A stretch of 64,000 bases of DNA from a virus. The notes under the pieces were generated by a model that was not told the DNA's origin, ran no database searches, and worked only from the letters and a program-made list of their open reading frames with translations. Where the stretch lies: the IMG/VR virus record IMGVR_UViG_3300045988_099276, positions 32,001 through 96,000 of that record; one strand, 5' to 3'. A program made the translations under genes and the position numbers. Below, one piece after another: positions 50,168-64,000 of this stretch (its first letter is position 1; each line of letters starts with the position of its first letter).

Positions 50168-50208
50168 TAAAAAATGGGCAGAACTATTTACATAATTCTG
50201 CCCAAAAA
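50168..50208 (-). terminator. Rho-independent terminator
   Basis: GGGCAGAA/TTCTGCCC stem followed by a T run on the minus strand. Confidence 0.6.
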
Positions 50209-50215
50209 TTTTAAG

Positions 50216-50916: not shown

Positions 50917-50941
50917 AATAAACTCCTAAAGATAGATAGGA

Positions 50942-51559: not shown

Positions 51560-51621
51560 AATAATCTTCTTTCTATCGTGGTGCATAGAAATATTTTATC
51601 CTGTGCGCACAAGTGGATAAA

Positions 51622-52135: not shown

Positions 52136-52321
52136 GGTGTTCTCCTTAGTGATATGTAGTAATACATATATATAAAAGAAGATATGGTAAGAGTTAATCT
52201 ATTTTATTGCATGGAATCTGATTTAACTTCATTACCATATCTTCGTAGTGTCTTTAAGATTTTTCTCTCTATTGTACCTAAAAATTAGAGGGTAAAAATT
52301 ATAATACTTTGCCCAATAATT

Positions 52322-53053
52322 TTAAATTTTTATCCACAACTTACATCTTGAATCTGTTGGCTGAGTAGATGAAACTTGAACTGAATATTCAGTGTTTGCA
52401 CTTCCAGCAGTAGTGGCATATTTAACTGATTGAGAACCAATATCAGCTGATGTAATACATTGGCCGTAATATGAATCGTCTGAGTTATATAGAGAAACAT
52501 TCGGAGTACCATTTAAACCTTTGACGCAAAAGGCACCACTCTTATTATGGTCACCAATAGCAGCATCATCGCCAACGACATACCAAGTATTGTTTGCGAA
52601 ATACGGTTCTAGCTTAGAAGGAAAATCACTGATTTGAGACTTTGTATGTGTATGACTAGAAGGCGTATATGTATTTGGCTTTCCAGATATATTATTCCAA
52701 GCGACAGCATTCGCAGTGGCGGCTGTAGTCGCTGTTGTGGCACTTCCTGCTGAATCAGCATATCCCGCAGACATTTTATACCAAGCACTAGAATTTAGCG
52801 CTCTTTTGTATAAATAAGATGATGCTCCGTCTGGAATAGCAATTTGAAATGGAGTGCCAATATCTGCATCGGTGAACACACTTGCCCATGTGCCAACGGG
52901 AGAAGATGCGTTGCCACCAGTTGACGGCACTCCCCTGACAACATAATAACCAGTTTTGGTATGATTATCTAGATTCGTATCAGTTGTTACTGTTTCTGTC
53001 AACAGCGGTATTTTAGAAAATTTACTACCATCAGAAAGATAAAGTTCAGCCAT
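52322..53053 (-). CDS. tail fibre / receptor-binding protein (fibre C)
   Basis: N-terminal MAELYLSDGSKFSKIP; ISGKPNTYTPSSHTHTKSQISDFP module; conserved C-terminus SSTQPTDSRCKLWIKI. No SD; ATG overlapped by the leader stop. Confidence 0.72.
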   Translation of the reverse strand: MAELYLSDGSKFSKIPLLTETVTTDTNLDNHTKTGYYVVRGVPSTGGNASSPVGTWASVFTDADIGTPFQIAIPDGASSYLYKRALNSSAWYKMSAGYADSAGSATTATTAATANAVAWNNISGKPNTYTPSSHTHTKSQISDFPSKLEPYFANNTWYVVGDDAAIGDHNKSGAFCVKGLNGTPNVSLYNSDDSYYGQCITSADIGSQSVKYATTAGSANTEYSVQVSSTQPTDSRCKLWIKI

Positions 53054-53117
53054 TTAAATCAATTAAACTAGTTAATGTGGGCTTAAAGCCCCCCCCCCAA
53101 GAAGTGTAAGTTTGCAT
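53046..53117 (-). CDS. poly-G leader ORF C (23 aa, ON frame)
   Basis: GAAAGGA SD then ATG; MQTYTSWGGGFKPTLTSLIDLNG. The TGA overlaps the fibre ATG (AATGGCTGA). Confidence 0.5.
   Translation of the reverse strand: MQTYTSWGGGFKPTLTSLIDLNG
53089..53098 (-). repeat. homopolymeric tract, G10 on the coding strand
   Basis: C10 run on the + strand inside leader ORF C. Confidence 0.95.
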
Positions 53118-53134
53118 AAAAATTCCTTTCAATC

Positions 53135-54181
53135 TTAAATTTTAATCCATATCTTACATGTATTGCTAGTAGGCTTTGTGCTAGATATGGTTACAATGTC
53201 GCTCGCTGCCTTGGCATTGAGCTTTGTGTTCATTTCACTTTCAGTATAGTAGCGGTCATCGTGAGTGTGGCTAGAGTTGGCTTTGCCGTTTAATTTAGTA
53301 TTGATTTCGCTTTCAGTGTAATATCTATCATCGTGAGTGTGACTTGACGGAGCATACGTAGAAGGTTTGCCATTAACATTCCCCCATGACACACTATTGG
53401 CAGAACCAGCACTGCTGGCATATGCAACTTTACCAACATCATAACCAGTAGCTTGTGCAGTATATGCTCTTGTGTCCATTGCAGCTCGGGGTTCATCGTT
53501 CATTAACTGCCAAGAAGAGCCATTACCACCACGGGTGCTGTTTGCTAAAATTCGGATATTACACGAATTATATGTGCCAGTAGCATGAAAATATAAATCA
53601 GCATATCCAACAGTTGATTTAGCAGAATGTATTTTTAAAATAAATTGGTCTGGTTCATATCCATATCTACAAAGCCATTGAACGTTTCCATGAGTAGCCA
53701 CAGCGCTTTCAGATACATTATCATTGCGGAAACGGACTGCTAGAATGCCAAATCCACCACTTTCGTAACCAGAATCTACACACAATACAACGCTACCATC
53801 GAAAGAATTAGTTTTTGATTCAAGCTTTAAACAACGCCAATATGGTTTAGCAGCACTGCTTTGAGTAACATATCGGACAGTACCATTTAAATAATTAGCG
53901 ATATTAGCTGTACCAGAAATATTACATGATACAACATTTCCTACTGGATTATATTTAAAATTATCGCTATGAACTCTTTGATTATCTGCACTATTATTTG
54001 AAAACCAAACATGTCTTGCAGCATTGTCCGAAGCGGTACCATAACTTTTTACTTCTTTCGCGGCACCTCCTGCGGAATCTGCACCCGCATAATTATGGCT
54101 ATGACTAGCAGCTGCTGCTCCCACCATATCTGGCGTCCACTCTTTAAAAGACCCGCCACTGGGATAATACGCTTTAGCCAA
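53135..54181 (-). CDS. tail fibre / receptor-binding protein (fibre B)
   Basis: TTG start without SD; MAKAYYPSGGSFKEW; SSHTHDDRYYTESE(I/M)NTKL occurs twice; C-terminus SSTKPTSNTCKIWIKI. Confidence 0.72.
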   Translation of the reverse strand: MAKAYYPSGGSFKEWTPDMVGAAAASHSHNYAGADSAGGAAKEVKSYGTASDNAARHVWFSNNSADNQRVHSDNFKYNPVGNVVSCNISGTANIANYLNGTVRYVTQSSAAKPYWRCLKLESKTNSFDGSVVLCVDSGYESGGFGILAVRFRNDNVSESAVATHGNVQWLCRYGYEPDQFILKIHSAKSTVGYADLYFHATGTYNSCNIRILANSTRGGNGSSWQLMNDEPRAAMDTRAYTAQATGYDVGKVAYASSAGSANSVSWGNVNGKPSTYAPSSHTHDDRYYTESEINTKLNGKANSSHTHDDRYYTESEMNTKLNAKAASDIVTISSTKPTSNTCKIWIKI

Positions 54182-54193
54182 TTAAATCATTGG

Positions 54194-54253
54194 CTACTGA
54201 TGCCCCCCCCAGCAGACCTCACTAAAGGTGCGCTGTGTTAAAATATTCTTCAT
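54194..54253 (-). CDS. poly-G leader ORF B (19 aa as sequenced, OFF frame)
   Basis: MKNILTQRTFSEVCWGGHQ* with G8. With G9 it reads ...WGGASVANDLIG* and its TAA overlaps the fibre TTG (TTGGCTAA). Confidence 0.45.
   Translation of the reverse strand: MKNILTQRTFSEVCWGGHQ
54203..54210 (-). repeat. homopolymeric tract, G8 on the coding strand
   Basis: C8 run on the + strand inside leader ORF B. Confidence 0.95.
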
Positions 54254-54260
54254 ATTATCA

Positions 54261-55721
54261 CTATACCTTAATCCATAATTTACAAGTACTCGCGTTGGGC
54301 TGCGAAGAAGAAACGATAACTTCTTCTGGCCGCCAAGTGTTAGTGTCATTATCAGTAAGCGCAATAGTCGCATTGCCAGACTGGTTCAAAGTAAACGTAC
54401 CCTTTGTAGCGCCGTTCTGCGTAATTGTAATAGTACCATTGCCGACAGAAGGAATTGACGGTCTGTTAGAGATTTCAGACCAAGAATAGGAAGGTTTGCT
54501 TGAAGCCTTAGCCCAAGCATACACATCACTTGCTGGCATACTGGTAGGGAAATCTGTAATCTGGGACTTTGAATGAGTGTGTGAAGAAGCGGCGGCACCG
54601 ATACTAGAAGCTGTGATATTAATATTCTTGACTGCACTACCATCATATGCACCTTGAGAAGTACCATTTAAAGAAATGGTAAGCGCATTAGGATTCTTTA
54701 AAGAACTTGGAACAGTAGGAATAGTAGGCTTATTGGAAAGGTCATTATATGAGCCGCTTGTCGCAACGGTAGCAAAAGATGGCTTGCCAGATACCTGTGA
54801 CCAAGTAGGAGTATGATTGGAATCAAAATAATGCGCCCAAGCGCTCCAAGCGTTAACATTAAACTGGCGAATCCAAGTTTTCATAGCATTGGTATTGCCC
54901 TCAGTTAAAACTTGAACTAGATAACTGCCAGCTGTTCTTTTGACTTCAAGACCGAAAGCGTCTACGCCAGTGGGCTTATTCTTGACACTATTTGAACCAC
55001 CCGCAAAATAAAGGCCAACTGTTTTAGTATCATCAAGATTTTGTGTAGTAAGTTCTGTTACCTTTAGTGCGTTTGCGGTTGCAGCAGTAGTCGCACTGCC
55101 AGCACTAGCCGCATACTTTACACTCTTGGCAGAGTCAGCGGTATTATCAACATTACCTAGACCGACTTCTGCCTTAGAATATGAAGGTTTTGTGGCTGCT
55201 TTCGCCCATGCAGAAACATCTGATGCTGGCATTGAAGTCGGAAAATCTGTAATATCGGCTTTAACATGTTTGTGACCAGTATCAGACTTACCGTCAAGAG
55301 CAGATTTAACAACCTTACTCTGAACTGGATTGGTAGAATTAGTAACGAACGATGTATCTACAACTGTCTTGTTCGCGCCAGTAGCAACACCGTCAAGTTT
55401 AGCCTTATCTGCGGCAGACATAAGACCTGCGGCACTGGTAGTAGCATTGCCGTATACAGTATTTGAATCGGTAACATTAAATGTACTACCATCGCTACCC
55501 TTGAGGGTAATTGTATTGCCATTTTTGGTTAGATTATAAGTTGTATTTGTATTGATATTATCTTTAATCTGAATCAGAGAGGATGAAGAAATACCCATCC
55601 ACAAAGTGCCGGTATCGGTGGCAACATACAATGCACCGTCCAATACTTTATTTTCGGCAGTGAGTGCTTTGATATTAGGTTCTTTATCTCTGATAAATTT
55701 TACTCTTGCTATCTTGCTCAC
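54261..55721 (-). CDS. tail fibre protein (486 aa)
   Basis: GAAAGGA SD then GTG. Repeated KADITDFPTSMPASDVSAWAKA / KSQITDFPTSMPASDVYAWAKA modules with HTH/HKH motifs. C-terminus SSSQPNASTCKLWIKV. Confidence 0.78.
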   Translation of the reverse strand: MSKIARVKFIRDKEPNIKALTAENKVLDGALYVATDTGTLWMGISSSSLIQIKDNINTNTTYNLTKNGNTITLKGSDGSTFNVTDSNTVYGNATTSAAGLMSAADKAKLDGVATGANKTVVDTSFVTNSTNPVQSKVVKSALDGKSDTGHKHVKADITDFPTSMPASDVSAWAKAATKPSYSKAEVGLGNVDNTADSAKSVKYAASAGSATTAATANALKVTELTTQNLDDTKTVGLYFAGGSNSVKNKPTGVDAFGLEVKRTAGSYLVQVLTEGNTNAMKTWIRQFNVNAWSAWAHYFDSNHTPTWSQVSGKPSFATVATSGSYNDLSNKPTIPTVPSSLKNPNALTISLNGTSQGAYDGSAVKNINITASSIGAAASSHTHSKSQITDFPTSMPASDVYAWAKASSKPSYSWSEISNRPSIPSVGNGTITITQNGATKGTFTLNQSGNATIALTDNDTNTWRPEEVIVSSSQPNASTCKLWIKV

Positions 55722-55736
55722 ATCCTTTCTGATAGA

Positions 55737-56498
55737 CTATTTAATAGAAGACCAAGTTAAATCATCTGGCGTAGCAAAATCAGAAGCATCATGATATGCG
55801 GCAGATTTTAAACCATATACTGCCACAGATTTATCTTTAACTTTGATTGTACCATTTGTAGTGCCAGTAGTAATAGATGTAACTGTCAAAACATCAGATG
55901 GCAAAATGCCGCTTGCAACGGTATCGACATATGCTTTAGTGGCAATGTCATTATCGTCATTGATGGCTTGACCAGCCGCGTATTTAATTTTACCAGATAA
56001 AGTACCACCAGTAAGAGGAAGATATTTCGCTTTCTCTTGGTCGGTATATGCCTTTGCATCTTTAAGGGCTTTATCTGCCCTTACTTGTGCGTCTGTTGAA
56101 GACGCACCAGATGCAGTCTTAATTGCTGAATTCATCTCACTCTTGGTTGGATAGTTCGATAGGTCGGTCTTAGAACCACCTAGCTTTTCAAACTTACCAT
56201 TAACCCAAAAATATTCAGTATATTCATTGCTGGATTCAGTCAAATCTGGCAACATATAAATTGTATTTTCTTCGCCAGTAGAAGGAAGAGTTGACCCTTT
56301 TGCAAGCACAACACGTTTAAGATGCGGCGCACCTGCCACTGCATTGGCAATAGCTGTGTTCATAGCATCCTTTTTAACATATTCTGCTGGAATTTTGTTA
56401 CTTGGAATGTTAATATCCCAATTAATATCAGAAGCATCTACGAGTTTGAAAGTGCCGTTATTCTTTTGTTTGATTTTATCAATAAGTTGAACAGGCAT
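55737..56498 (-). CDS. tail fibre protein (253 aa)
   Basis: Shares modules with 57341-58987 (HLKR.VLA..., TEY..VNG.FE..G, GTTNGTIKVKDKSVAVYGLKSAAY). Confidence 0.68.
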   Translation of the reverse strand: MPVQLIDKIKQKNNGTFKLVDASDINWDINIPSNKIPAEYVKKDAMNTAIANAVAGAPHLKRVVLAKGSTLPSTGEENTIYMLPDLTESSNEYTEYFWVNGKFEKLGGSKTDLSNYPTKSEMNSAIKTASGASSTDAQVRADKALKDAKAYTDQEKAKYLPLTGGTLSGKIKYAAGQAINDDNDIATKAYVDTVASGILPSDVLTVTSITTGTTNGTIKVKDKSVAVYGLKSAAYHDASDFATPDDLTWSSIK

Positions 56499-57316
56499 TA
56501 TTTCACCTCCACCGTAGTTGCACCTAATCCTGCATTAGTTGACCTATAGATATTATAAGAAGCGGTATAGCCACTTGCATTTGTGAAATCAAAAGTCTTT
56601 ACTTTGTTGAAGCCACCCTCGAAACCTCCAACATAAAATGCGGGAGTTCCAAAAGAAGCAGGAATAGCAAAATAAATATGCTGCTCAGCATTAGCTGTGA
56701 CGCTCCATGAACCAGTGCGGCCAGACACTAGATTTTTAGTAAGCCCTTTGACAAATGTCGCATCCATCCTAGAAGTATCTGTTATATTGCTCACGCCATA
56801 GTATTTACCATTTAAAAAGTAAATTGTAGTCTGCTTAGTAGATGTGGCTTTGCGAGCATCAGTAGCGGTCAAAGTAAATGCGGTCGTTGCGGTAAGAGGT
56901 GCCGCAAATGTAATTGCCGCATTCCCAGATTGTGTCTTATTGATTTCAAATGATTGGCTACCTGTTGTAATTGTCAGTTTAGAAGGTTGTTTGTTCAAAT
57001 TCCAAGAGAAGTTGGAAGATGGAAGACGAGAACCTATTTCAAGTGTGCCGCTATTGTTAGAAAAACTATTAACGGACATCGCTTTATAAATTGAAAGTGT
57101 GCCGTCAGAGGTAATATCAAAATCTCCGCTTGGCTTGATAATACCTGCAGCAGAACCCGTGGCAATTTTAATATCGCCACAGCTATATTTGATATTATTT
57201 TTCATGATACTCGTGGTATCTGAAAGAAAATAGATGCCGTTGGGGTCTATTTTGGTAGACCCCAACGCATCATACTCTGATTGCACGCCTGTGTAAAATC
57301 TAATATCAGCAGACAT
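56498..57316 (-). CDS. tail fibre / baseplate-associated protein
   Basis: N-terminus MSADIRFYTGVQSEYDALGSTKIDPNGIYFLSD resembles the other fibre N-termini; Ser/Thr-rich beta-type sequence. Confidence 0.6.
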   Translation of the reverse strand: MSADIRFYTGVQSEYDALGSTKIDPNGIYFLSDTTSIMKNNIKYSCGDIKIATGSAAGIIKPSGDFDITSDGTLSIYKAMSVNSFSNNSGTLEIGSRLPSSNFSWNLNKQPSKLTITTGSQSFEINKTQSGNAAITFAAPLTATTAFTLTATDARKATSTKQTTIYFLNGKYYGVSNITDTSRMDATFVKGLTKNLVSGRTGSWSVTANAEQHIYFAIPASFGTPAFYVGGFEGGFNKVKTFDFTNASGYTASYNIYRSTNAGLGATTVEVK

Positions 57317-57340
57317 ACAATCTCCTTAATCTAATTTAAA

Positions 57341-58987
57341 TTAGAGCGTCTGCCATTCAATTAGGCTGTTAGCATATTCCTTCGCAGATTTAAGAGCGTT
57401 GTTAGCCTTGGTAGTAGCATCTGCGGCAGCAGCGTCAATAGCTTCGCTCTTCTTTGTGTCAGCATAAGTCTTAGCTTCAGAAAGAGCGCCAGCAGCGGAA
57501 CCAGAAGCATCAAAAGCACCACTGTTCTGATAGGCAGCAGAACCAAGACCCTTAACGGCAACGTCTGTACCCTTGACAGAGATTGTACCGTTAGCGGTAC
57601 CAGAAATAACGTCAGCAGCCTGTAGAGCAGTATCGGCCTTTGTACCCTGAGCAGAGGTAGCGAAAGCACCAGTGGCGGCATACGCGGCAGTACCTAGGCC
57701 ATGAACCTTGACGGGAGCGCCCTTAACGGAGATAGCACCGTTAACAGTACCCTCAACAACATCAGCAGCCTGTAGAGCAGAATCAGCTTTATCACCTTGG
57801 TCGGCAGTAGCATAATTCTTGGCTAGACCATCAGAATAAGCCTTAGCATCTTCAAGAGCCTTATCAGCCTTTTTACCAGCTTCGGTGATAGCAGCAGCTT
57901 GAGCAGCGTTAGCCTTTGTGGTGGCATCGGTTGCGGCAGCAGCAATGGCAGCATTCTTAGCAGCATCGGCCTTAGTCTGAGCATCGGCAGCAGCTACGCC
58001 CTTAGCGGTAGTAATAGCACTAGTTACTTGGTCTTTAGTGAAGTAATTGCTAAGGTCTGTATCAGAAGTACCAATGCGTTCAAAGGCACCATTGATAAGC
58101 ATATACTCAGTGTATACAGACTTATTAGAACCTGCGGCATCAGCGCTGCCAGAATCAGGAACCATATAAATTGTATCTTCATTGGCAGCAGAAACCTCGG
58201 GGAGCTGAGCAACGATTTCACGCTTTAGGTGATGTGCGTTAGCTACAGCAGAAGTGATATGGCTATCAACTTCGGTCTTTGTATAAGCATCTCCGATACC
58301 ATAGCCAGCAAGAGTAGTAGCCTTGTTAGCTTTTTTATCAATTTCAGCCTGTAGAGCAGTCTTTGCGGCACCAACCTGACGGGTTGTCTCAGCAGCAGCA
58401 GCTTCGATAGCTTCTGTTTTCTTGGTAGCAGAATCAGCCTTGGCATCCTCTAGAGCCTTATTGGCTTTAGTAGTAGCGTCTGCGGCAGCGGCTCCAATAG
58501 CAGCCTGCTTAGCATCAGCAGCAGCTTTCTTGATAGAGCCTTCGCCCTCACCGTTAATAACGCCAATAGCAGCTTCATTAGCATTAGCTTTGCCCTCAAC
58601 AGCGGTAACGCGGTCAGCTAGAGCACCTGTATTAAGATTAGCAATAGTATCCTTAACATAATCGGCAACAGACTTAGCAGTAGCAAGCTCAGCGGCAGTG
58701 CTAGCATCAGAAATAGTAGTAGCCTTGGGAAGAACTACGGTCTGAAAAGCAGAGCCATCATAAAAACGAACTTCACCAGTAGTCTTATGGACATAGAGGA
58801 CATTCTGCTTAGCCGTATCGGTTGCAGGGAAAGCATCAACAGTCTTGTAAACGCCACCAGAGAAGCACTGGTCACCCTTGAAGATTTGGTTGACACCGTT
58901 ACCGATAAAGTACAGAGTATTGGGGTCTTTTACAGCAAGAGAGTTATACTTTGCAAGGTCGGTAGCAATAAATTTTACTTGTGCCAT
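57341..58987 (-). CDS. long Ala-rich coiled-coil tail fibre (548 aa)
   Basis: MAQVKFIATDLAKYNSLAVKDPNTLYFI; three AAADATTKAN.AL(E/K).AK repeats; duplicated GT.NG.ISVKG..V.V.GLG.AAY modules. Confidence 0.75.
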   Translation of the reverse strand: MAQVKFIATDLAKYNSLAVKDPNTLYFIGNGVNQIFKGDQCFSGGVYKTVDAFPATDTAKQNVLYVHKTTGEVRFYDGSAFQTVVLPKATTISDASTAAELATAKSVADYVKDTIANLNTGALADRVTAVEGKANANEAAIGVINGEGEGSIKKAAADAKQAAIGAAAADATTKANKALEDAKADSATKKTEAIEAAAAETTRQVGAAKTALQAEIDKKANKATTLAGYGIGDAYTKTEVDSHITSAVANAHHLKREIVAQLPEVSAANEDTIYMVPDSGSADAAGSNKSVYTEYMLINGAFERIGTSDTDLSNYFTKDQVTSAITTAKGVAAADAQTKADAAKNAAIAAAATDATTKANAAQAAAITEAGKKADKALEDAKAYSDGLAKNYATADQGDKADSALQAADVVEGTVNGAISVKGAPVKVHGLGTAAYAATGAFATSAQGTKADTALQAADVISGTANGTISVKGTDVAVKGLGSAAYQNSGAFDASGSAAGALSEAKTYADTKKSEAIDAAAADATTKANNALKSAKEYANSLIEWQTL

Positions 58988-59053
58988 GTAACATCCTTTC
59001 TTTTACATCTTGCAATACATATATATTATAAGCGCATTTGCGCATATAACCAA

Positions 59054-59485
59054 TTAAGATTCCAACTGATTCCATTCAGTTAGATTTGAAACCATAATAT
59101 ATTCTTTTGTGGCCGCAGACCATTTATAAGTAGCTTTGTCGGCAACATATAGTGTCTTTGGATTCCCTTCTTTTGGAAAATCTAGAACGCTTGTGGCAAA
59201 CACGATAGGCTCTAGATTGTCTGGAGTCATTTGCTGCCAAGAGCCATTTGAAAAATTCCACATGACGTTCGTAGAAGTGACGTAATAATATCCTTCAATG
59301 ACAGCAGTATATTTAATTCTGTCTTCTTCTGTGGCAAATGTCTGAATTGTCTTGAATGGATAGCGACCGCCATTGAAATCTAGACAAACTGTGCCGCCGT
59401 CAGTTACAAAAATAATATTGCCGTCACGCACTGGGAGCTTTGAGAGGTTCTTCGCGCTAACAGTGTAGAGGTTAGTATAAGTCAT
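59054..59485 (-). CDS. structural protein (fibre-associated)
   Basis: 143 aa; N-terminus ...LPVRDGNIIFVTDGGTVCLDFNG resembles the fibre N-terminal motif. Confidence 0.5.
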   Translation of the reverse strand: MTYTNLYTVSAKNLSKLPVRDGNIIFVTDGGTVCLDFNGGRYPFKTIQTFATEEDRIKYTAVIEGYYYVTSTNVMWNFSNGSWQQMTPDNLEPIVFATSVLDFPKEGNPKTLYVADKATYKWSAATKEYIMVSNLTEWNQLES

Positions 59486-60307
59486 TTAATCACCCTCCCC
59501 TACAAGTTTATCGAAGTCTATCATTTCAAGGTGCGGAGTTTGAATATTTCTATCAATATATTCTTTAATTGTAGAAATATCATCTGTAAACGTAATGCCG
59601 CATTTATCAGCATCTAGTTTTGAATCAATGCGGGCATCGACAATCGCCAAAGATTTCTTAGCTTCTTCCAGAGCTGCATCGGCTTTATTGCCAATTTGCT
59701 CAACACGTTCCATAGCTTCGGTAGCCTTTTTTGCCGCATCGTCTGCCTTACTAGCAGCCGCATTAGCTGTATCTACTGCTTCTTTTGCATCGACCTTTAC
59801 CTTGCTAAACTCAAGCAGCATGTCTTCAAATTCAATTTTCTGAGCAACCATCTGCTTTTTCATTTGGTCACCGATACAATTTAGACGAATAACTGCATTC
59901 TGGAATAGCGTGAAATCATCAGAAACTACAAAAGAAGAGCCGTCATTTGGGTCTGATAAAACGTGTACGATGAAGTTTGTAGACTGAGCAATAGAAACGC
60001 TGTCTACTAATTCAATGCAGCATAGAACATCGCCTTCGAGCAACATAGCTTGCGGCCATTTGATTTCCCAGATAATTGGGTCATCATTCGTCTGCGTGAA
60101 GACATTATATCCCTTAATCTTCTTTTGGCGATGGAACCAACTCAGATATACTTTAGTCTCAGGAGTAATTTGAGCAGCAGCTTCTTGGTCAAAAATAATC
60201 CTAAAAGTACGACCGTTCGCATCCGCGCCACCAGCTACAATAGGGTCTTTAATATCTTGGTCAAGAGACTTTAAATTGACTGTAACTGTTTTCAATTCCT
60301 GACTCAT
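59486..60307 (-). CDS. baseplate upper protein (BppU)-like
   Basis: N-terminal TVNLKSLDQDIKDPIVAGGADANGRTFRIIF resembles the BppU N-domain; C-terminal Ala-rich coiled coil. Pattern-level inference. Confidence 0.45.
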   Translation of the reverse strand: MSQELKTVTVNLKSLDQDIKDPIVAGGADANGRTFRIIFDQEAAAQITPETKVYLSWFHRQKKIKGYNVFTQTNDDPIIWEIKWPQAMLLEGDVLCCIELVDSVSIAQSTNFIVHVLSDPNDGSSFVVSDDFTLFQNAVIRLNCIGDQMKKQMVAQKIEFEDMLLEFSKVKVDAKEAVDTANAAASKADDAAKKATEAMERVEQIGNKADAALEEAKKSLAIVDARIDSKLDADKCGITFTDDISTIKEYIDRNIQTPHLEMIDFDKLVGEGD

Positions 60308-60841
60308 TTATTCACTCCTTTCATTGTTCTTTTGGCTTACAATAAATTGTGGATTGGAAAGATTGATTCTCGGTAGTTCGCGTATCTCTTCCATTAAGCC
60401 ATCAATGAATGAGTTGCCGCCTGCCGCTTTATAATATAAATATCTACGCTCTAGAGATTCTAGGTTAAGGTCATCAATAGCCTTGATTTCATAGCAAAAA
60501 TAGTGATGCTTGTCAATGATATAACTGCGAGAATTTTCCTGCAATCTTTCAAGAGTAAGTTTTTCATGCTCTTGGAGTGTTTTAATATCATTCGATTGGT
60601 TGCTAATTTCTTGGCTAAGATTTTTAACGTCTGCTTGCAACGAAGCAATACTTTCCACAATCTCAGAGTGCTTTATATCTTTAATTGTCTGATAGTTGAA
60701 ATACTTTTTTAATTTATCATAACAATATTCCAATAGCTCACTTAAAAATTTAAAAGCGACAGCTAAAGTCACAACTAGCATAACGATAGCCCCAAAAGAG
60801 TATTGCGATACCAGTTGCGATAAAGCATCCATTCTCGGCAA
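60308..60841 (-). CDS. membrane-anchored coiled-coil protein
   Basis: TM helix FGAIVMLVVTLAVAFKF followed by a coiled coil. Confidence 0.5.
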   Translation of the reverse strand: MPRMDALSQLVSQYSFGAIVMLVVTLAVAFKFLSELLEYCYDKLKKYFNYQTIKDIKHSEIVESIASLQADVKNLSQEISNQSNDIKTLQEHEKLTLERLQENSRSYIIDKHHYFCYEIKAIDDLNLESLERRYLYYKAAGGNSFIDGLMEEIRELPRINLSNPQFIVSQKNNERSE

Positions 60842-60910
60842 TATCCCTTCTTCTCTACATAATCTATATAATATGAAAATAATTTGTATTTGATTTTAGG
60901 AATTTGCCCA

Positions 60911-60943
60911 TAAAAAAACGAGGGAAACATAAAGTTTCCCTCG
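60911..60943 (-). terminator. Rho-independent terminator
   Basis: CGAGGGAAAC/GTTTCCCTCG stem followed by T7 on the minus strand. Confidence 0.75.
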
Positions 60944-61008
60944 AATTAATAAACTATGTCTAGGAGATTAACAAAATTTGATATTATGCTGCACCTCCTA
61001 TCATATAA

Positions 61009-61395
61009 CTAGGCTGTGCGGAAATAGATATTAAAAGCCCTGTACTTTGGGCGGTTGTCAAAAGGTTGATTACCGCCTGTATTTTCCATCGAATCGTTTG
61101 GTGGATTCCAGCTTCTAGAACCGTTAAGAGCAGCTTTAAAATAGTTTTGTGAATTGCCAGTAAGCCATTCACCGAATCCAGCAAGCACGTGGTTATGTGA
61201 TGGCATTTGGTTAATTGTAAGTTTAATAGAGTTTGTGCCACCTGTTGTATTTGGCGTGCCGCAACAAATGAACGTGTCATTATCGAGCTTTGTCCATGTT
61301 CCGCCAATGGAATCTGCTGGCGAGACTGAATTGTTTGAAATAAAGACTGACCCAACTGGGTAGACAATATCCATGAGGTTAACGTAGTTAGACAT
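61009..61395 (-). CDS. phage tail-collar-domain protein, paralog 4
   Basis: MSNYVNLMDIVYPVGSVFIS...SPADSIGGTWTKL...MPSHNH...GGNQPFDNRPKY...YFRTA. Confidence 0.72.
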   Translation of the reverse strand: MSNYVNLMDIVYPVGSVFISNNSVSPADSIGGTWTKLDNDTFICCGTPNTTGGTNSIKLTINQMPSHNHVLAGFGEWLTGNSQNYFKAALNGSRSWNPPNDSMENTGGNQPFDNRPKYRAFNIYFRTA

Positions 61396-61413
61396 ACGCC
61401 ACCTCGCTCAGAT

Positions 61414-61806
61414 TTAAGCTGTACGATACCAGATAAAGCAAGTTGTATAGGGCGGCAGATTGTTGTGTGCTTGCCCCCCCCCAGTATTCTTTGCAGCATT
61501 ATTCCAATCTGGATTACCATCATTCCACGCAGGAGAATTAGTTGCAAAAAGTGTACGATATGTTGTTGCATTTCCACCGTTAACAACAGCAACAACAATG
61601 CCATGTCCATGAGACGGCATTTCATCAATTGTTAACGTATGCTTTGCTTCTCCGCCTGTTTGATTTGCGGTATTAGCTCCATAGAGGAAAGTCTTAATTT
61701 TCGTCCATGTACCACCAATAGAATCAGCAGGTGATGTTGCACTCATGCTCTGATAGATTGAGCCTACTGGATATACGATATCCAATAGATTTACAAAATT
61801 ACTCAT
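61414..61806 (-). CDS. phage tail-collar-domain protein, paralog 3 (contains an in-frame G9 tract)
   Basis: MSNFVNLLDIVYPVGSIYQS...GGTWTKI...MPSHGH...NTGGGQAHNNLPPY...WYRTA. The GGG GGG GGG codons encode the conserved GGGQ motif. Confidence 0.72.
   Translation of the reverse strand: MSNFVNLLDIVYPVGSIYQSMSATSPADSIGGTWTKIKTFLYGANTANQTGGEAKHTLTIDEMPSHGHGIVVAVVNGGNATTYRTLFATNSPAWNDGNPDWNNAAKNTGGGQAHNNLPPYTTCFIWYRTA
61474..61482 (-). repeat. homopolymeric tract, G9 on the coding strand, intragenic
   Basis: C9 run on the + strand, 23 codons before the stop of 61414-61806. Confidence 0.95.
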
Positions 61807-61850
61807 TTATATCCTTTCTAATTTAATAGAAAGAATATTATAAAATCTTC

Positions 61851-62303
61851 TTAGGCTGTTCTCTTATATACATTTAAAGAATAATGATAAGGAATATGCT
61901 TCTGCTGCTCGACTAATTGCCCATTTGAGTCTATTCGCCAAATGTCTTTAGTCCACAAATTCCAACCAGTATCACCACCATCTTTACCACCAACTGACAA
62001 TAATTGCCATAGATTACCAGCGGCAGCATTAGTATTCCAAAAACCAATACCCGAATATTGTTCCCTGTCATGATGCCAACCCACAACATTGTGCTGATGG
62101 TCTGGTATGGCTAGCTGAGAAATTATATTGCTACCAGAAAAACGTCCAGCTACGTTATAGGTATCACCACTTGCCGCAAGCAAACAATTTTCAATTTGTG
62201 TCCACGTACCACCAATAGAATCAGCAGGAGAAGTAGCATTTGTACTAATATAGATACTTCCTACTGGATAAATAATATCAAGAAGATTTACAAAATTAGA
62301 CAT
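61851..62303 (-). CDS. phage tail-collar-domain protein, paralog 2 (divergent C-terminal half)
   Basis: MSNFVNLLDIIYPVGSIYIS...SPADSIGGTWTQI...IPDHQH...YKRTA. Confidence 0.68.
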   Translation of the reverse strand: MSNFVNLLDIIYPVGSIYISTNATSPADSIGGTWTQIENCLLAASGDTYNVAGRFSGSNIISQLAIPDHQHNVVGWHHDREQYSGIGFWNTNAAAGNLWQLLSVGGKDGGDTGWNLWTKDIWRIDSNGQLVEQQKHIPYHYSLNVYKRTA

Positions 62304-62342
62304 GATAAATCACCATGCCTAGAACAGCCATTGAAGAAGAAG

Positions 62343-62399
62343 CTACATTACTGTAGCCTCCCCCCCCCAATGACTGTGATTAGTCATTAAGTTTTTCAT
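62343..62399 (-). CDS. poly-G leader ORF D (18 aa as sequenced, OFF frame)
   Basis: GAAAGGA SD then ATG; MKNLMTNHSHWGGEATVM* with G9. With G10 it reads ...HWGGGGYSNVASSSMAVLGMVIYHV* and its TAA overlaps the next ATG (ATGTCTAA). Confidence 0.45.
   Translation of the reverse strand: MKNLMTNHSHWGGEATVM
62360..62368 (-). repeat. homopolymeric tract, G9 on the coding strand
   Basis: C9 run on the + strand inside leader ORF D. Confidence 0.95.
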
Positions 62400-62434
62400 A
62401 ATATCCTTTCGTTTAGATATTATGATTTTAGACT

Positions 62435-62818
62435 TTAAGCAGTTCGCACCCAAACTTTGCAAGCATATGAATAAGGATAATAATCCTGTCCACCACCAGC
62501 ATCACCAGTATTACACCCTTGAGGATAGTTTTGTGCGCCAGCACTGCCTGAATCTTCACTATAGTCTTTACGAACAATATTAGGATTACCGTAATTTGCT
62601 GTAACATATTGAGCGTGTGCGTGAACTGGCATCTGTTTAACGCTAATAGTCTTACTACCAGTATAACCTACAATATCATCATATGCGGCCAAACATGCGC
62701 CATCTTTAATTTGAGTCCATGTACCGCCAATAGATGATGCAGGTGAAATACCGCTAGCAGTGATATATATACTGTTTACAGGATAGATAATATCTAGAAG
62801 GTTTACGAAATTGCTCAT
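62435..62818 (-). CDS. phage tail-collar-domain protein, paralog 1
   Basis: MSNFVNLLDIIYPVNSIYIT...GGTWTQI...MPVHAH...GGGQDYYPYSY...VWVRTA. Strong AAGGAGG SD. Confidence 0.72.
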   Translation of the reverse strand: MSNFVNLLDIIYPVNSIYITASGISPASSIGGTWTQIKDGACLAAYDDIVGYTGSKTISVKQMPVHAHAQYVTANYGNPNIVRKDYSEDSGSAGAQNYPQGCNTGDAGGGQDYYPYSYACKVWVRTA

Positions 62819-62931
62819 TATTCAACCTCCTTATTTGGGAGGTTATCTAAAATCATAATATCAAATTGATTTATAGATTCTAAGCTACCGCAGTAGCCCC
62901 CTAGAGAGGTCAATTCATTAAACTTATTCAC
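62818..62931 (-). CDS. leader-like small ORF E (37 aa) with a short G5 run
   Basis: AAAGGAG SD then GTG; VNKFNELTSLGGYCGSLESINQFDIMILDNLPNKEVE. Its TAA overlaps the next ATG (TAATG). LGGY aligns with WGGGGY of leader D. Confidence 0.45.
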   Translation of the reverse strand: MNKFNELTSLGGYCGSLESINQFDIMILDNLPNKEVE

Positions 62932-62975
62932 ATAAAACTCCTTTTCTTTCTCAGAATTATATTCTATATCTATAT

Positions 62976-63010
62976 GAAAAAAGGGCAAAACCCCTAATAG
63001 GATTTTGCCC
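62976..63010 (-). terminator. Rho-independent terminator
   Basis: GGGCAAAA/TTTTGCCC stem followed by T6 on the minus strand, after fibre A. Confidence 0.6.
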
Positions 63011-63019
63011 AAAACTATA

Positions 63020-63838
63020 TTAGATTTTAATCCACAATTTACAAGTAGAGGATGTAGGCTGAGAAGATGATACAGTGATAACATCATTTGCCGCATAATT
63101 GGAAGAAGAAGTATATGCGGCGCTACCAAGACCTAACCATTTCCTATATTCACCTTGTGATACGTCTTTAATTTTTCGTTCATCGTTCATACCAAGAGCA
63201 TACTTAAAATCGGCAGATGTAAATCCATCACCAGCATAACCGATTTTAATACCTTGATTAGTATTATTATAATCCGCTATCTCAATAGCTTTATCTGCTG
63301 AACCTGCACTTGTAGCTTTACCAGTAAGATTGCCTTTAAAATTATTAGCTTCAATCGTTGAATACGCAGTATTCGATGTATAATTACAAAACTTATATGT
63401 AATACCAGTAGTCCCACCATCTGATGCATCAGAGTCGGCATTTCTATAATTAAAATAACAAGTAGGTTGCTTACCACCAGAAAAGTTAATTTCATTTTGA
63501 TGAGTATAAATTACATTTATACACTTATTAGCGGTACCAGCTGAATTAGCATAATTTACTGACTTACTAGAATCTGCTGTATTATTGACGTTATTGATAC
63601 CTAGATATTGCTTTGCCGCATCTAGATTTACATCTTTAATATGATTGCCAGTTGAACTATATCCTGCAAGACAACCTAAATTCTTTTCAGCATCTTCTTG
63701 ATTTAATCTTAAAGATTCTGCTGCAAATCCTATTTTAATTGTTCTACCGGTAGGTGCATTATAATCTCGCACACCATCGGCTTTAGAAGGGACAAATTCA
63801 GAAAAATTCGTCCCATCGCTCACCATAAAATCAGCCAC
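63020..63838 (-). CDS. tail fibre / receptor-binding protein (fibre A)
   Basis: GTG start without SD; MADFMVSDGTNFSEFVP; C-terminus SSSQPTSSTCKLWIKI. Confidence 0.72.
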   Translation of the reverse strand: MADFMVSDGTNFSEFVPSKADGVRDYNAPTGRTIKIGFAAESLRLNQEDAEKNLGCLAGYSSTGNHIKDVNLDAAKQYLGINNVNNTADSSKSVNYANSAGTANKCINVIYTHQNEINFSGGKQPTCYFNYRNADSDASDGGTTGITYKFCNYTSNTAYSTIEANNFKGNLTGKATSAGSADKAIEIADYNNTNQGIKIGYAGDGFTSADFKYALGMNDERKIKDVSQGEYRKWLGLGSAAYTSSSNYAANDVITVSSSQPTSSTCKLWIKI

Positions 63839-63852
63839 ATCTATCAGCTAAG

Positions 63853-63897
63853 TTATCTAGCGGGGCAGATGCCCCCCCCCAGAAACGTATTATTCAT
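63853..63897 (-). CDS. poly-G leader ORF A (14 aa as sequenced, OFF frame)
   Basis: AAGGA SD then ATG; MNNTFLGGGICPAR* with G9. With G8 it reads MNNTFLGGASAPLDNLADRCG* and its TGA overlaps the fibre GTG (GTGGCTGA). Confidence 0.45.
   Translation of the reverse strand: MNNTFLGGGICPAR
63872..63880 (-). repeat. homopolymeric tract, G9 on the coding strand
   Basis: C9 run on the + strand inside leader ORF A. Confidence 0.95.
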
Positions 63898-63907
63898 ATC
63901 TACATCC

Positions 63908-64000
63908 TTAAATTTGTACCCACAGTTTAACATGTTCTTCTGTTGGCTTACTCACGCCAACATAAACAGTACCAACATCATCTGCAAGTTTACCATTGGT
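63908..64000 (-). CDS. tail fibre protein (3' end only; gene starts beyond the window)
   Basis: ...TNGKLADDVGTVYVGVSKPTEEHVKLWVQI*; the C-terminus is homologous to the ..QPT...CKLWIKI ends of the other fibres. Confidence 0.6.
   Translation of the reverse strand, partial: TNGKLADDVGTVYVGVSKPTEEHVKLWVQI

What the first reader, a model, noticed from the sequence alone, without database searches (positions are those of the whole stretch)
61474..61482. Intragenic G9 tract encoding the conserved GGGQ motif of a tail-collar protein
In paralog 61414-61806 the conserved Gly-Gly-Gly-Gln motif is written GGG GGG GGG CAA. Paralog 1 encodes its GGGQ with GGT GGT GGA, and paralog 4 encodes its GGNQ with GGC GGT AAT. 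Choosing the slippage-prone codons only here suggests selection for hypermutability. A +/-1 slip would replace or truncate the last ~23 residues (..AHNNLPPYTTCFIWYRTA), switching this tip protein OFF. The tract is currently in frame.
Basis: partly seen in the sequence, partly recalled or inferred. Interest (0 to 1): 0.7.

Follow-up and report, generated by a model that had tools for sequence, protein, structure and literature searches.

The report
Slippery poly-G switches in gut-phage fibres
A run of nine G's inside a tail-tip gene of a human-gut phage is one of five slippage-prone poly-G tracts that most likely switch individual host-recognition proteins on and off at random. Four of them appear to act through short leader reading frames, a design I did not find described.

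Summary
C9 on the + strand at 61474-61482 is G9 on the coding strand. It encodes the GGG of the conserved GGGQ motif in a 130-aa Gp10_C-domain protein (61414..61806, - strand), and it is in frame.

It is not chance. GGG makes up only 4.5% of Gly codons here. G/C runs in the window stop at 5 and resume at 8-10. All five long runs lie on the coding strand of the 11-kb tail-fibre module.

The hypermutability reading is supported:
- Orthologous tracts in related gut-phage contigs are G8, G9, G10 or G11.
- Public databases hold the exact predicted +1 (139 aa) and -1 (274 aa) frameshift products.
- Two assemblies of the same sequencing run differ over 20.4 kb only at two poly-G tracts, one of them this one.
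- 8 of 21 such intragenic tracts are out of frame in consensus assemblies.

The closest known case is the Campylobacter Fletchervirus poly-G receptor-binding-protein switch.

The other four tracts are a new design. Each sits in a short leader ORF with its own ribosome-binding site. Only one of its three frames terminates on the start codon of a fibre or tip gene, and that gene has no ribosome-binding site or a hairpin-sequestered one. Frame-dependent translational coupling is inferred, not shown. Switching rates and any host-range effect are untested.

The parts
61474..61482 (-). The flagged G9 tract. It encodes Gly109-111 of the GGGQ motif and is currently in frame (ON).
   Evidence: Orthologous tracts are G8 to G11.
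61414..61806 (-). Gene for the 130-aa stand-alone Gp10_C-domain protein ('paralogue 2'). It has its own SD (GAAAGGA, -10 kcal/mol).
   Evidence: Pfam PF21939, E 1.1e-21. SD energy. Homologues are annotated antireceptor or tail collar fibre.
61388..61390 (-). TAA inside ATGTCTAA of the next gene. It is the stop used by the +1 (G10/G7) frame and gives a 139/138-aa product.
   Evidence: Natural products P0011, P0133 and others end ...LNLSEVAYV.
60984..61628 (-). Alternative-frame ORF entered in the -1 (G8/G11) state. It runs through all of paralogue 1 and gives a 273/274-aa product.
   Evidence: P0124 (274 aa) on L159 is exactly this product. It is not conserved in length in L094 (152 aa), so it is probably fortuitous.
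61009..61395 (-). Gp10_C paralogue 1 (GGNQ, no tract), the last gene of the four-gene tip operon.
   Evidence: A terminator follows at 60919-60943.
61851..62303 (-). Gp10_C paralogue 3 (150 aa), controlled by leader B.
62296..62399 (-). Leader ORF B, from ATG 62399 with SD GAAAGGA. Its G9 tract is at 62360-62368. The present frame stops at 62345 (OFF). G10 or G7 reads to TAA at 62298-62296, which overlaps the ATG of paralogue 3.
   Evidence: The RNA fold has z = -7.3. The structure is conserved, with 4 compensatory pairs.
62297..62321 (-). Hairpin UAGGCAUGGUGA-uuu-AUCAUGUCUA. It buries the SD-like GGUGA and the AUG of paralogue 3.
   Evidence: Start-codon accessibility is 0.00.
62435..62818 (-). 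Gp10_C paralogue 4 (GGGQ written GGT GGT GGA), behind leader C.
62818..62931 (-). Leader ORF C, from GTG 62931, ending in TAATG. Its tract is only G5 here (62897-62901), which is the ON frame and probably stable; relatives have G7-G11. A CCUCC...GGAGG hairpin sequesters the SD of paralogue 4.
63020..63838 (-). Tail-fibre-like gene (272 aa, GTG start, no SD: -1.6 kcal/mol), behind leader A.
63831..63897 (-). Leader ORF A, from ATG 63897 with SD AAGGA. Its G9 tract is at 63872-63880. It is currently OFF; G8 would read to TGA, which overlaps GTGGCTGA.
53135..54181 (-). Tail-fibre-like gene (348 aa, TTG start, no SD: +0.2 kcal/mol), behind a leader ORF.
54174..54253 (-). Leader ORF from ATG 54253. 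Its G8 tract is at 54203-54210. It is OFF; G9 would read to TAA, which overlaps TTGGCTAA. The hairpin AGCCAAU...AUUGGCU buries the UUG start.
   Evidence: The tract is G10 in the second assembly of the same run.
52322..53053 (-). Tail-fibre-like gene (243 aa, ATG start, no SD: +0.2 kcal/mol), behind a leader ORF.
53046..53117 (-). Leader ORF from ATG 53117 with SD GAAAGGA. Its G10 tract is at 53089-53098. It is currently in the through frame (ON) and ends at TGA, which overlaps ATGGCTGA.
62983..63010 (-). Strong intrinsic terminator after the fibre gene, followed by a promoter-like site at 62961-62988. It marks the start of the four-paralogue tip operon.

Best explanation
The G9 tract is a contingency locus, meaning a hypermutable simple repeat, in a receptor-recognition gene of a roughly 146-kb phage from the human gut.

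Proposed mechanism:
1. During phage DNA replication the run gains or loses G's by slipped-strand mispairing.
2. Lengths of 9 (or 6, or 12) give the full 130-aa Gp10_C-domain tip protein.
3. Any other length replaces the last 19 residues. These hold the family's most conserved motif (QAHNNLPPY...) and the terminal beta-strand, so the product is presumably non-functional.
4. Each burst therefore contains virions with and without this tip protein. This is bet-hedging on host recognition.

The conserved Gly-Gly-Gly motif lets the switch be written at no cost to the protein.

The tract belongs to a set of five poly-G switches in the same module. The other four sit in short leader ORFs. Only one of their three frames carries ribosomes onto the start codon of the downstream fibre or tip gene, so tract length probably gates translation of those genes by coupling.

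Shown:
- the tract, its improbability and its position;
- the frame consequences;
- natural length variants in all three frames;
- conservation of the design in relatives.

Inferred:
- the slippage rate and its reversibility;
- loss of function in OFF frames;
- the effect on host range;
- translational coupling at the leaders.
For: Improbability and placement:
- GGG is 4.5% of Gly codons. G/C run lengths are bimodal. Five runs of 8 or more are seen against 0.1 expected.
- All five lie on the coding strand within the 11-kb tail-fibre module and none in the other 53 kb.

Length variation:
- In 24 related contigs there are 75 tracts: G7 x7, G8 x11, G9 x42, G10 x13, G11 x1, G20 x1. They always lie on the coding strand of the same module.
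- At this motif 13 tracts are in frame and 8 out of frame.
- DNA with identical flanks carries G10 (L093) or G8 (L094).
- Predicted frameshift proteins exist: P0011 (139 aa) sits in a 90% cluster of 42 sequences that mixes 130-aa in-frame forms with 139-aa +1-frame forms; P0124 (274 aa) matches the window's residues 1-108 and its alternative frame exactly.
- L001 and L159 are two assemblies of run ERR321583. Over 20,393 nt they have 0 substitutions and differ only at this tract (G9 vs G11) and at the 54203 tract (G8 vs G10).

Past slips and repairs:
- Compensated slips: L006 G10+CAGCAC (GGGAAH), L015 G10+AAGCAC, L007 G8+A.
- Interrupted or locked alleles: L003, L010.

Protein:
- Pfam Gp10_C, E 1e-21.
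- Homologues are annotated antireceptor or tail collar fibre.
- The C-terminal motif is nearly invariant in 36 sequences.
- The C-terminal strand is modelled with pLDDT of about 91.

Leaders:
- 50-51 of 53 tracts, and 15 of 16 distinct classes, have one through frame; 7.3 classes are expected (P = 1.4e-5).
- The downstream genes lack an SD (+0.2, +0.2 and -1.6 kcal/mol against a median of -8.4) or have the SD or start codon in conserved hairpins.
Against: - No read-level data, switching rate or phenotype is available.
- Consensus lengths of G8-G11 runs in short-read assemblies can be wrong, so some ON/OFF calls may be technical. The two assemblies of one run could differ through assembler behaviour rather than true heterogeneity, and both differences are +2.
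- The window, L001 and an independent sample (L002) share identical lengths at the three tracts that L002 covers (L001, which spans all five, matches the window at all five). The tracts are therefore not wildly unstable.
- Receptor binding by these stand-alone Gp10_C proteins rests on homology at 31-45% identity and on annotations.
- The AF2 model is only moderate (pLDDT 73) and the Foldseek match to T4 gp10 is weak (E 0.04).
- The host is unknown.
- For the leaders, L003 has a stop just before the tract and L005 has a frameshifted leader. ON states are only 14 of 50, about the random third. Accessibility of two of the five downstream starts is ordinary.
Confidence: 0.8

Rival explanations
1. 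Length, not frame, is what matters at the tracts. The G run is part of an RNA (or DNA) structure. At the leaders it pairs with a CUUCUUCUU stretch. Changing its length tunes hairpin stability, RNA decay, termination or polarity in a graded way. The reading-frame effects are secondary.
For: - The class B leader folds into a long hairpin in which the poly-G pairs with CUUCUUCUU (z = -7.3), and this is conserved.
- Hairpins directly 3' of many tracts: GCUAC-N4-6-GUAGC and GGGGC-aucu-GCCCC.
- Consensus leader states are about one third ON, as expected if frame is not under selection.
Against: - It does not apply to the flagged intragenic tract, where the frame obviously matters and frameshift products are seen.
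- It does not explain why 15 of 16 leader classes keep one open through frame ending on the downstream start (P = 1.4e-5), nor why leaders carry the SD while the downstream genes lack one.
- The G:U-rich helix tolerates register shifts.
Confidence: 0.1
2. The tracts are non-adaptive. They are mutational or recombinational by-products, such as microhomology junctions of cassette shuffling, that persist in a fast-evolving module. Out-of-frame alleles are simply defective or decaying genes.
For: - Chimeric junctions lie exactly at tracts (L009, L014, L016: leader A 5' half joined to a class C or D 3' half), so tracts do act as recombination points.
- Many paralogues lack tracts: 56 of 72 C-termini.
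- Redundancy of paralogues could tolerate pseudogenes.
Against: - Tracts sit at the same two kinds of position (the GGGQ motif and leader ORFs) in lineages with 28-49% GC (L067, L101, L105).
- Lengths cluster at 8-10 rather than decaying.
- Out-of-frame genes are otherwise intact and nearly identical to in-frame ones.
- Compensated slips show selection restoring the frame.
- GGG codons are otherwise avoided.
Confidence: 0.06
3. The tract is a programmed recoding site. Transcriptional or ribosomal slippage on G9 makes a second C-terminal isoform from one DNA sequence.
For: - Long homopolymers can cause RNA-polymerase slippage (general knowledge).
- The +1 frame always ends exactly on the next gene's start, and the -1 frame is open for 162 codons in the window.
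Against: - The variation is in the DNA.
- The alternative-frame peptides are not conserved as proteins. The -1 product is 152 aa in L094, 209 aa in P0063 and 274 aa here.
- The +1 stop follows automatically from the conserved M-S/A-N start (ATG xCT AAx).
Confidence: 0.03
4. The tracts are sequencing or assembly artefacts of poly-G.
For: - Illumina chemistry has known poly-G problems.
- Two assemblers disagree on the same run.
Against: - Tracts occur at homologous positions in dozens of independent assemblies from ENA, Logan and IMG, always embedded in unique sequence and in coding context.
- The tract encodes a conserved Gly motif.
Confidence: 0.01

Closest known systems
Hypermutable polyG tracts in receptor-binding-protein genes of Campylobacter Fletchervirus phages (Sorensen et al. 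2021, Cell Rep 35:109214). Cited; the paper itself was not held.
   Same: - A phage genome carries G7-G11 tracts in host-recognition genes.
- Length changes switch individual RBPs ON and OFF and create mixed virion populations.
- Several tracts occur per genome.
   Different: - This is an unrelated phage with no nucleotide match to any catalogued phage. It has an SPbeta-YorL-like polymerase, comes from a human-gut metagenome, and its host is unknown and not shown to be phase-variable itself.
- The intragenic tract sits on a conserved C-terminal Gly motif of a small Gp10_C protein.
- Four of the five tracts are in leader ORFs rather than in the RBP ORFs, as far as the descriptions available to me say for Fletchervirus ('in receptor binding proteins').
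- The first 50 kb of NCTC12673 holds no tract of 7 or more; the rest was not examined.
Phage contingency loci in T2/T4 and other coliphages (Gomez, Barrick and Waters, bioRxiv 10.1101/2025.10.21.683753)
   Same: Short homopolymers in phage genes slip during replication and give reversible frameshifts used for bet-hedging.
   Different: - Those are mostly runs of 6 or more bases scattered over all gene classes, and they are significantly under-represented in tail-fibre genes.
- Here the runs are long (8-10 G), absent elsewhere in 53 kb, and concentrated in the fibre module.
Bacterial SSR phase variation (Campylobacter, Neisseria and Haemophilus contingency genes; from general knowledge)
   Same: - PolyG of 8-11.
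- Translational ON/OFF by frame.
- Tract-length polymorphism among near-identical genomes.
- Interrupted 'locked' alleles.
   Different: - This is encoded by a virus.
- In bacteria, tracts are usually near the 5' end of the ORF or in promoter spacers. I found no description of a homopolymer in a leader ORF that gates a downstream gene by translational coupling (search).
Translational coupling by leader ORFs and termination-reinitiation at overlapping stop/start codons (classical operon coupling; leader-peptide control such as tnaC, reviewed in PMC12360218)
   Same: - A short SD-bearing upstream ORF.
- A stop overlapping the downstream start (TAATG, GTGA, ATGnnTGA/TAA).
- The downstream start lacks an SD or is buried in a hairpin that a translating ribosome would open.
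   Different: The input is not a metabolite or ribosome stalling. It is the length of a hypermutable poly-G run that decides whether the leader frame reaches the downstream start.
T4 gp10 C-terminal domain and gp12-type 'collar' receptor-binding heads; antireceptors of Lactobacillus delbrueckii phages
   Same: - Pfam PF21939 match over the whole protein.
- Homologues are annotated antireceptor, short tail fibre or tail collar fibre.
- T4 gp10 is the top structural match (weak).
   Different: Here the domain is a free-standing 127-150-aa protein in four tandem paralogues with a conserved N-terminus and C-terminus and a hypervariable middle. In PHROG families it forms the C-terminal end of long tail proteins.

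Membership tests
SSR contingency locus (slipped-strand phase variation) | Homopolymer long enough to slip (about 7-8 G or more) and far beyond chance expectation | tested here: met
   G9. Five runs of 8 or more are observed against 0.1 expected. There are no runs of 6-7. GGG is 4.5% of Gly codons.
SSR contingency locus (slipped-strand phase variation) | Length change alters expression of a defined gene | tested here: met
   In silico, G8/G11 and G7/G10 replace the last 19 residues. The C-terminal motif is nearly invariant.
SSR contingency locus (slipped-strand phase variation) | Tract-length polymorphism among near-identical genomes or within a population | tested here: met
   L093 has G10 and L094 has G8. 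P0011 and P0124 are the predicted frameshift products. Two assemblies of one run differ only at two tracts. True within-sample heterogeneity is not proven.
SSR contingency locus (slipped-strand phase variation) | High-frequency, reversible switching measured in clonal lineages | not testable with these tools
   Needs reads or culture.
Fletchervirus-type phase-variable phage RBP | Tract lies in a gene for a receptor-binding protein of a phage | tested here: inconclusive
   The phage context is clear. The receptor-binding role is inferred from the Gp10_C domain and from antireceptor / tail-collar annotations of homologues. There is no binding data.
Fletchervirus-type phase-variable phage RBP | Sequence relatedness to Fletchervirus, or a Campylobacter host | tested here: not met
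   No megablast match to 50,697 phage records. The polymerase is closest to Bacillus SPbeta YorL. The tip-protein homologues are in Streptococcus, Lactobacillus and Vibrio phages. It is therefore analogous, not a member.
Pfam PF21939 Gp10_C | Score above the curated gathering threshold over the full domain | tested here: met
   78.7 bits against a cut-off of 27, covering profile positions 1-139. All four paralogues pass.
Leader-ORF translational coupling | Upstream ORF with its own SD whose stop overlaps the downstream start | tested here: met
   50-51 of 53 tracts and 15 of 16 classes have one such frame, P = 1.4e-5. Leader SD energies are -5 to -9.6 kcal/mol.
Leader-ORF translational coupling | Downstream gene unable to initiate on its own (no SD, or SD/start sequestered) | tested here: met
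   SD energies are +0.2, +0.2 and -1.6 kcal/mol for three fibre genes against a median of -8.4. Hairpins cover the SD or start at B, C and 54203. This is an in-silico result only.
Leader-ORF translational coupling | Downstream expression depends on leader translation | not testable with these tools
   Needs reporter fusions or ribosome profiling.
Programmed frameshift / transcriptional slippage recoding | Conserved functional product in the alternative frame | tested here: not met
   -1 products are 152, 209 and 274 aa with no conserved end. +1 products are off-frame readings of conserved DNA.
Diversity-generating retroelement (the other known gut-phage RBP diversifier) | Template/variable repeat pair near the RBP gene | tested here: not met
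   Only paralogous repeats of 60-80% identity occur in 50000-64000. A reverse transcriptase was not searched for.

The most novel reading that the evidence does not exclude
A family of large human-gut phages runs its host-recognition module with a bank of independent poly-G switches of two kinds. One kind is a classical in-ORF switch written onto the conserved GGGQ motif of small interchangeable tip proteins. The other kind has not been described to my knowledge: the poly-G lies in a short leader ORF and decides by reading frame whether ribosomes are delivered onto the SD-less or hairpin-masked start codon of a tail-fibre or tip gene. This would be phase variation by translational coupling. 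With five switches in this genome (six tracts of 8 or more G's in the 12-kb stretch of L105, a more distant contig) a single burst would contain tens of virion types. The tracts also serve as microhomology junctions for shuffling fibre cassettes.
Probability: 0.55. Interest if true: 0.85.

Novelty: new variant of a known kind. Interest (0 to 1): 0.68.

Why it matters
Phase-variable receptor-binding proteins have been shown experimentally for only one phage group, the Campylobacter Fletchervirus.

If the switches here work as inferred:
- Stochastic host-range bet-hedging would be a common strategy of abundant, uncultured gut phages. The same design appears in contigs with 28-49% GC.
- It would affect how host range is predicted from metagenomes. 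A 'frameshifted' fibre gene would be a state, not a pseudogene.
- It would affect how gut-phage genomes are annotated and how phages are chosen or engineered for therapy.

The leader-ORF design would add a new mechanism to the catalogue of phase variation: frame-dependent translational coupling. It would also be a compact, portable stochastic ON/OFF module for synthetic biology.

The idea is directly testable, because public read sets (for example ERR321583) already exist.

Tried and rejected
- Megablast of 60900-63200 against 50,697 phage records gave no match, so there is no cultured close relative.
- A PDB sequence search gave only a marginal gp10 hit (E 0.33).
- AF2 plus Foldseek gave a moderate model and a weak gp10 match. 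I used these only to say that the C-terminal strand is part of the fold.
- The genome-contig scan found no relative above 48% identity, so no prophage and no host assignment.
- Promoter reading of the intergenic tracts: sigma-70-like sites are not enriched (34 against 37 expected) and no tract lies in a -35/-10 spacer. Rejected as the main mechanism.
- N-terminal extension or fusion reading: could each leader plus downstream ORF be one gene split by a frameshift? No. The downstream frame is closed by a stop between tract and start (for example TAA directly before ATG or TTG).
- DGR: no template/variable repeats.
- The long alternative-frame ORF 60984..61628 as a real gene: rejected, because it is not conserved in relatives.
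- The Cell Reports 2021 paper could not be read. The first 50 kb of Fletchervirus NCTC12673 holds no tract of 7 or more, and I did not scan the rest.
- The pattern scan of viral contigs for the tract plus its 3' flank returned only contigs already in hand.
Full report
**1. The observation.**
The + strand reads C9 at 61474-61482, which is G9 on the - strand. It lies in ORF 61414..61806 (-), 130 aa. The codons ACT GGG GGG GGG CAA encode T-GGG-Q of ...NTGGGQAHNNLPPYTTCFIWYRTA and are in frame. The sister genes write the homologous motif with mixed codons: GGT GGT GGA CAG at 62435..62818 and GGC GGT AAT at 61009..61395.

In 61 ORFs of the window GGG is only 4.5% of Gly codons, so three in a row has P of about 9e-5. 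The G/C run-length histogram is 1-5, then a gap, then 8, 9, 9, 9, 10. Markov simulations expect 0.1 runs of 8 or more.

**2. It is not alone.**
All five long runs are C on the + strand, which is G on the coding strand of the tail-fibre module. They are C10 at 53089, C8 at 54203, C9 at 61474, C9 at 62360 and C9 at 63872. None occurs in the other 53 kb (replication, nucleotide metabolism, lysis). The other four lie outside the large ORFs, each just 5' of a tail-fibre-like or tip gene.

**3. What the gene is.**
All four tandem small genes (61009..61395, 61414..61806, 61851..62303, 62435..62818) match Pfam PF21939 Gp10_C. The flagged one scores E 1.1e-21 over the full profile.

PHROG profiles place this domain at the C-terminal end of long tail proteins. 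Cultured homologues at 31-45% identity are annotated antireceptor (Lactobacillus delbrueckii phages), short tail fibre or tail collar fibre (KVP40-like Vibrio phages), or structural or tail protein (Streptococcus prophages).

An alignment of 36 sequences shows three zones:
- a conserved N-terminus (MSNFVNLLDIVYPVGSIY...EMPxHxH);
- a hypervariable middle;
- an almost invariant C-terminus (GGGQAHNNLPPYTTCFIWYRTA).

An AF2 model (pLDDT 73) places residues 120-128 in a confident terminal strand. Its best, weak, structural match is T4 gp10.

A terminator at 62983-63010, a promoter-like site, and a terminator at 60919-60943 bracket the four paralogues as one operon. The window belongs to a roughly 146-kb human-gut metagenome contig (ERZ916335, run ERR321583). 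The phage encodes a PolIII-alpha closest to Bacillus SPbeta YorL at 38% identity. It has no nucleotide match among catalogued phages and no close prophage in 185,579 reference genomes. The host is unknown, probably Bacillota.

**4. Consequences of a slip.**
- G10 or G7: residues 1-111 are followed by a 28-residue nonsense tail (ASTQQSAALYNLLYLVSYSLNLSEVAYV). It ends at the TAA inside the next gene's ATGTCTAA.
- G8 or G11: the frame stays open through the whole next paralogue (ORF 60984..61628), giving 273-274 aa.
- Either way the conserved C-terminal motif and strand are lost.

**5. Does the tract vary in nature?**
Yes.

(a) Twenty-four related contigs (GC 0.37-0.40, 78-148 kb) carry 75 tracts of G7 to G11, plus one G20. 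They are always on the coding strand of this module, and G9 is the mode.

(b) At the homologous GGGQ site the tract is G8 (L004, L094), G9 (L005, L009, L012-14), G10 (L006, L015, L019, L093) or G8+A (L007). A second paralogue type (...GGGQDYIPYHY...) carries its own tract of G7-G10. In consensus assemblies 13 of these intragenic tracts are in frame and 8 are out of frame.

(c) A search of 5.8 billion protein clusters returned the predicted frameshift products. P0011 (139 aa, 97% identical over the shared part) represents a 90%-identity cluster of 42 sequences, which mixes 130-aa in-frame forms with 139-aa +1-frame forms. P0012, P0014, P0015 and P0016 are in the same +1 frame. P0017 and P0063 are in the -1 frame. 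Clusters at 90% identity mix 130-aa in-frame versions with 139-, 146-, 151- and 274-aa versions.

(d) P0124 (274 aa) equals the window's residues 1-108 plus its alternative frame exactly. Its contig L159 is the Logan assembly of ERR321583, the same run that gave L001, which matches the window throughout this module. Over 20,393 aligned bases the two assemblies have no substitution and differ at only two places. One is this tract (G9 vs G11). The other is the leader tract at 54203 (G8 vs G10). That is what mixed tract lengths in one sample would produce, although assembler behaviour cannot be excluded.

(e) There are traces of past slips and repairs. Compensated alleles are G10+CAGCAC giving GGGAAH in L006, G10+AAGCAC giving GGGEAH in L015, and variable residues right after GGG (Q, K, A, G, E, T, R). 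Interrupted or locked alleles are GGT GGT GGG in L003 and GGT GGG GGG in L010/L011.

**6. The four other tracts: leader ORFs.**
Each lies in a short ORF that has its own SD and ATG or GTG start. The tract is reached after 6-14 codons (...W/L-G-G-G...). In exactly one of the three frames the ORF runs on to a stop that overlaps the start of the downstream gene. The overlap is xTG GCT GA / ATG TCT AA (stop at +6..+8), GTGA (+2) or TAATG (-1). The other two frames stop 7-68 nt earlier.

Present states in the window:

| Leader tract | Length | State | Length needed for ON |
|---|---|---|---|
| 53089 | G10 | ON | - |
| 54203 | G8 | OFF | G9 |
| 62360 | G9 | OFF | G10 |
| 63872 | G9 | OFF | G8 |
| Class C, 62897-62901 | G5 (G7-G11 in relatives) | ON, probably stable | - |

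Across relatives, 50-51 of 53 leader tracts keep one through frame, and 14 are ON against 36 OFF. Among 16 sequence-distinct leader classes, 15 have a through frame against 7.3 expected from shuffles. These classes include distant contigs L067, L101 (GC 0.28) and L105 (GC 0.49). The Poisson-binomial P is 1.4e-5.

The three fibre genes behind leaders have essentially no SD (+0.2, +0.2 and -1.6 kcal/mol). The median of 57 other genes is -8.4 and the leaders score -5 to -9.6. Two of the three use TTG or GTG starts.

The two tip genes behind leaders do have SDs, but these are buried:
- A CCUCC-N7-GGAGG hairpin lies before 62435..62818, and the same design (CCUCC-uaaau-GGAGG) appears in L067.
- An 11-bp hairpin at 62297-62321 covers GGUGA and the AUG of 61851..62303.

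The class B leader folds with z = -7.3, and the poly-G pairs with CUUCUUCUU. In 12 distinct sequences 98.9% of cells pair. Four pairs show compensatory double changes, all from the most divergent sequence, so the covariation evidence is modest.

I infer frame-dependent translational coupling. Only the through frame brings ribosomes across the hairpins onto the downstream start.

Evidence against or qualifying this:
- L003 has a stop immediately before its class B tract, and L005 has a frameshifted leader.
- ON states are no more common than the random third.
- Two of the five downstream starts have ordinary predicted accessibility, though those two have no SD at all.

**7. Breadth.**
- A second lineage (L026, L034-L054, L077; GC 0.46-0.49) has a tract in the 5' coding region of a Gp10_C-like gene (MAIGNLNIA-GGG-LEAYPIGSIY). 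It also has a poly-C (Pro-Pro-Pro) tract of 7-16 in the next gene.
- L105, a 130-kb contig binned with a Prevotella MAG, has six tracts of G8-G11 of both kinds.
- Cultured Streptococcus, Lactobacillus and Vibrio phage homologues show none.

**8. What is known.**
Fletchervirus phages of Campylobacter carry G7-G11 tracts in receptor-binding-protein genes, and these give phase-variable RBP expression (Sorensen et al. 2021, as cited). The paper itself was not held, so its details are from memory.

A 2025 preprint shows contingency loci in T2/T4 and other coliphages. It reports such repeats to be under-represented in tail-fibre genes.

Full-text searches found no report of poly-G switches in gut phages. 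They also found none of a homopolymer in a leader ORF gating a downstream gene by coupling. Absence from a partial library is not proof.

**9. Verdict.**
The tract behaves as a contingency locus in a probable receptor-recognition gene. By itself that is a new member of the Fletchervirus-type phenomenon, in an unrelated and uncultured gut-phage lineage. Taken with its four neighbours it reveals a bank of switches, and the leader-ORF design is, to my knowledge, a new variant.

Not shown:
- switching rates;
- true within-population heterogeneity;
- loss of function in OFF states;
- receptor binding;
- translational coupling;
- the host.

Noticed in passing
window 53089-53098, 54203-54210, 62360-62368, 63872-63880 (- strand): Four further poly-G tracts (G10, G8, G9, G9) lie in short SD-bearing leader ORFs upstream of three tail-fibre-like genes and one Gp10_C paralogue. 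Only one frame of each leader ends on the downstream start codon.
   Followed up: yes
window 62897-62901 (- strand): The class C leader tract, G7-G11 in relatives, is only G5 here and sits in the through frame. This looks like a contracted, locked-ON allele. The leader's GTG start overlaps an ATG-TGA 'start-stop' (62933-62928).
   Followed up: partly
window 62357-62359 (- strand), next to the tract at 62360: The window has a 3-nt insertion (AGG) directly 3' of the class B tract, compared with all relatives (G9-AGG-CTACAG against Gn-CTACAG). It preserves the frame and extends the purine arm of the hairpin.
   Followed up: partly
L009:9929, L014:8685, L016:7758: These are chimeric leaders. The 5' half of leader A is joined, exactly at the poly-G, to the 3' half of leader class C or D, with the intervening gene(s) missing. 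The tracts seem to act as microhomology junctions for deletion or shuffling of fibre cassettes.
   Followed up: partly
window 60984-61628 (- strand): A 214-codon ORF is open in an alternative frame across the end of paralogue 2 and all of paralogue 1. It is what the -1 state reads into (274-aa product P0124). It is not conserved in L094 (152 aa), so it is probably fortuitous.
   Followed up: yes
L001 vs L159 (both from run ERR321583); window 61474 and 54203: Two public assemblies of one sequencing run are identical over 20.4 kb except for +2 G at two poly-G tracts.
   Followed up: yes
L019:6936: A G20 tract sits in leader A of one relative, twice the usual length, and is still in the through frame.
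   Followed up: no
L034-L054, L077, L026 (e.g. L039:10434 and 11375); L105:4029-7303; L101:2666: Other gut-phage lineages (GC 0.28-0.49) carry poly-G in the 5' coding region of Gp10_C-like genes. They also carry a poly-C (Pro-Pro-Pro) tract of 7-16 in the next gene, or the same leader and GGGQ designs. L105 has six tracts in 3.3 kb.
   Followed up: partly
window 52329-52375, 53142-53188, 54268-54314, 63027-63073 (also the gene ending at 63910): Four or five otherwise different tail-fibre-like proteins share a conserved C-terminal end (...SSxQPTxxTCKLWIKI/V). It is possibly a common docking or assembly motif, perhaps for the interchangeable Gp10_C tips.
   Followed up: no
window 61414-62818; alignment A2: The Gp10_C paralogues are mosaics. 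The N-terminal 66 residues and C-terminal 22 residues are conserved, and the middle (residues about 70-106) is hypervariable, with whole-segment replacements between relatives.
   Followed up: partly
window 33671-37231 (+), 43650-44174 (+), 47036-48082 (-): The phage encodes a PolIII-alpha-like polymerase closest to SPbeta YorL (38% identity). By its sequence motifs alone (no search was run), the ORF at 43650-44174 looks like an anaerobic ribonucleotide-reductase activase. It also encodes an amidase-type endolysin. This fits a large phage of anaerobic Bacillota, whose own polymerase may set the slippage rate.
   Followed up: partly
window 46984: The only long A/T homopolymer of 9 in the window (A9). 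It is useful as an internal control for read-level slippage analysis.
   Followed up: no
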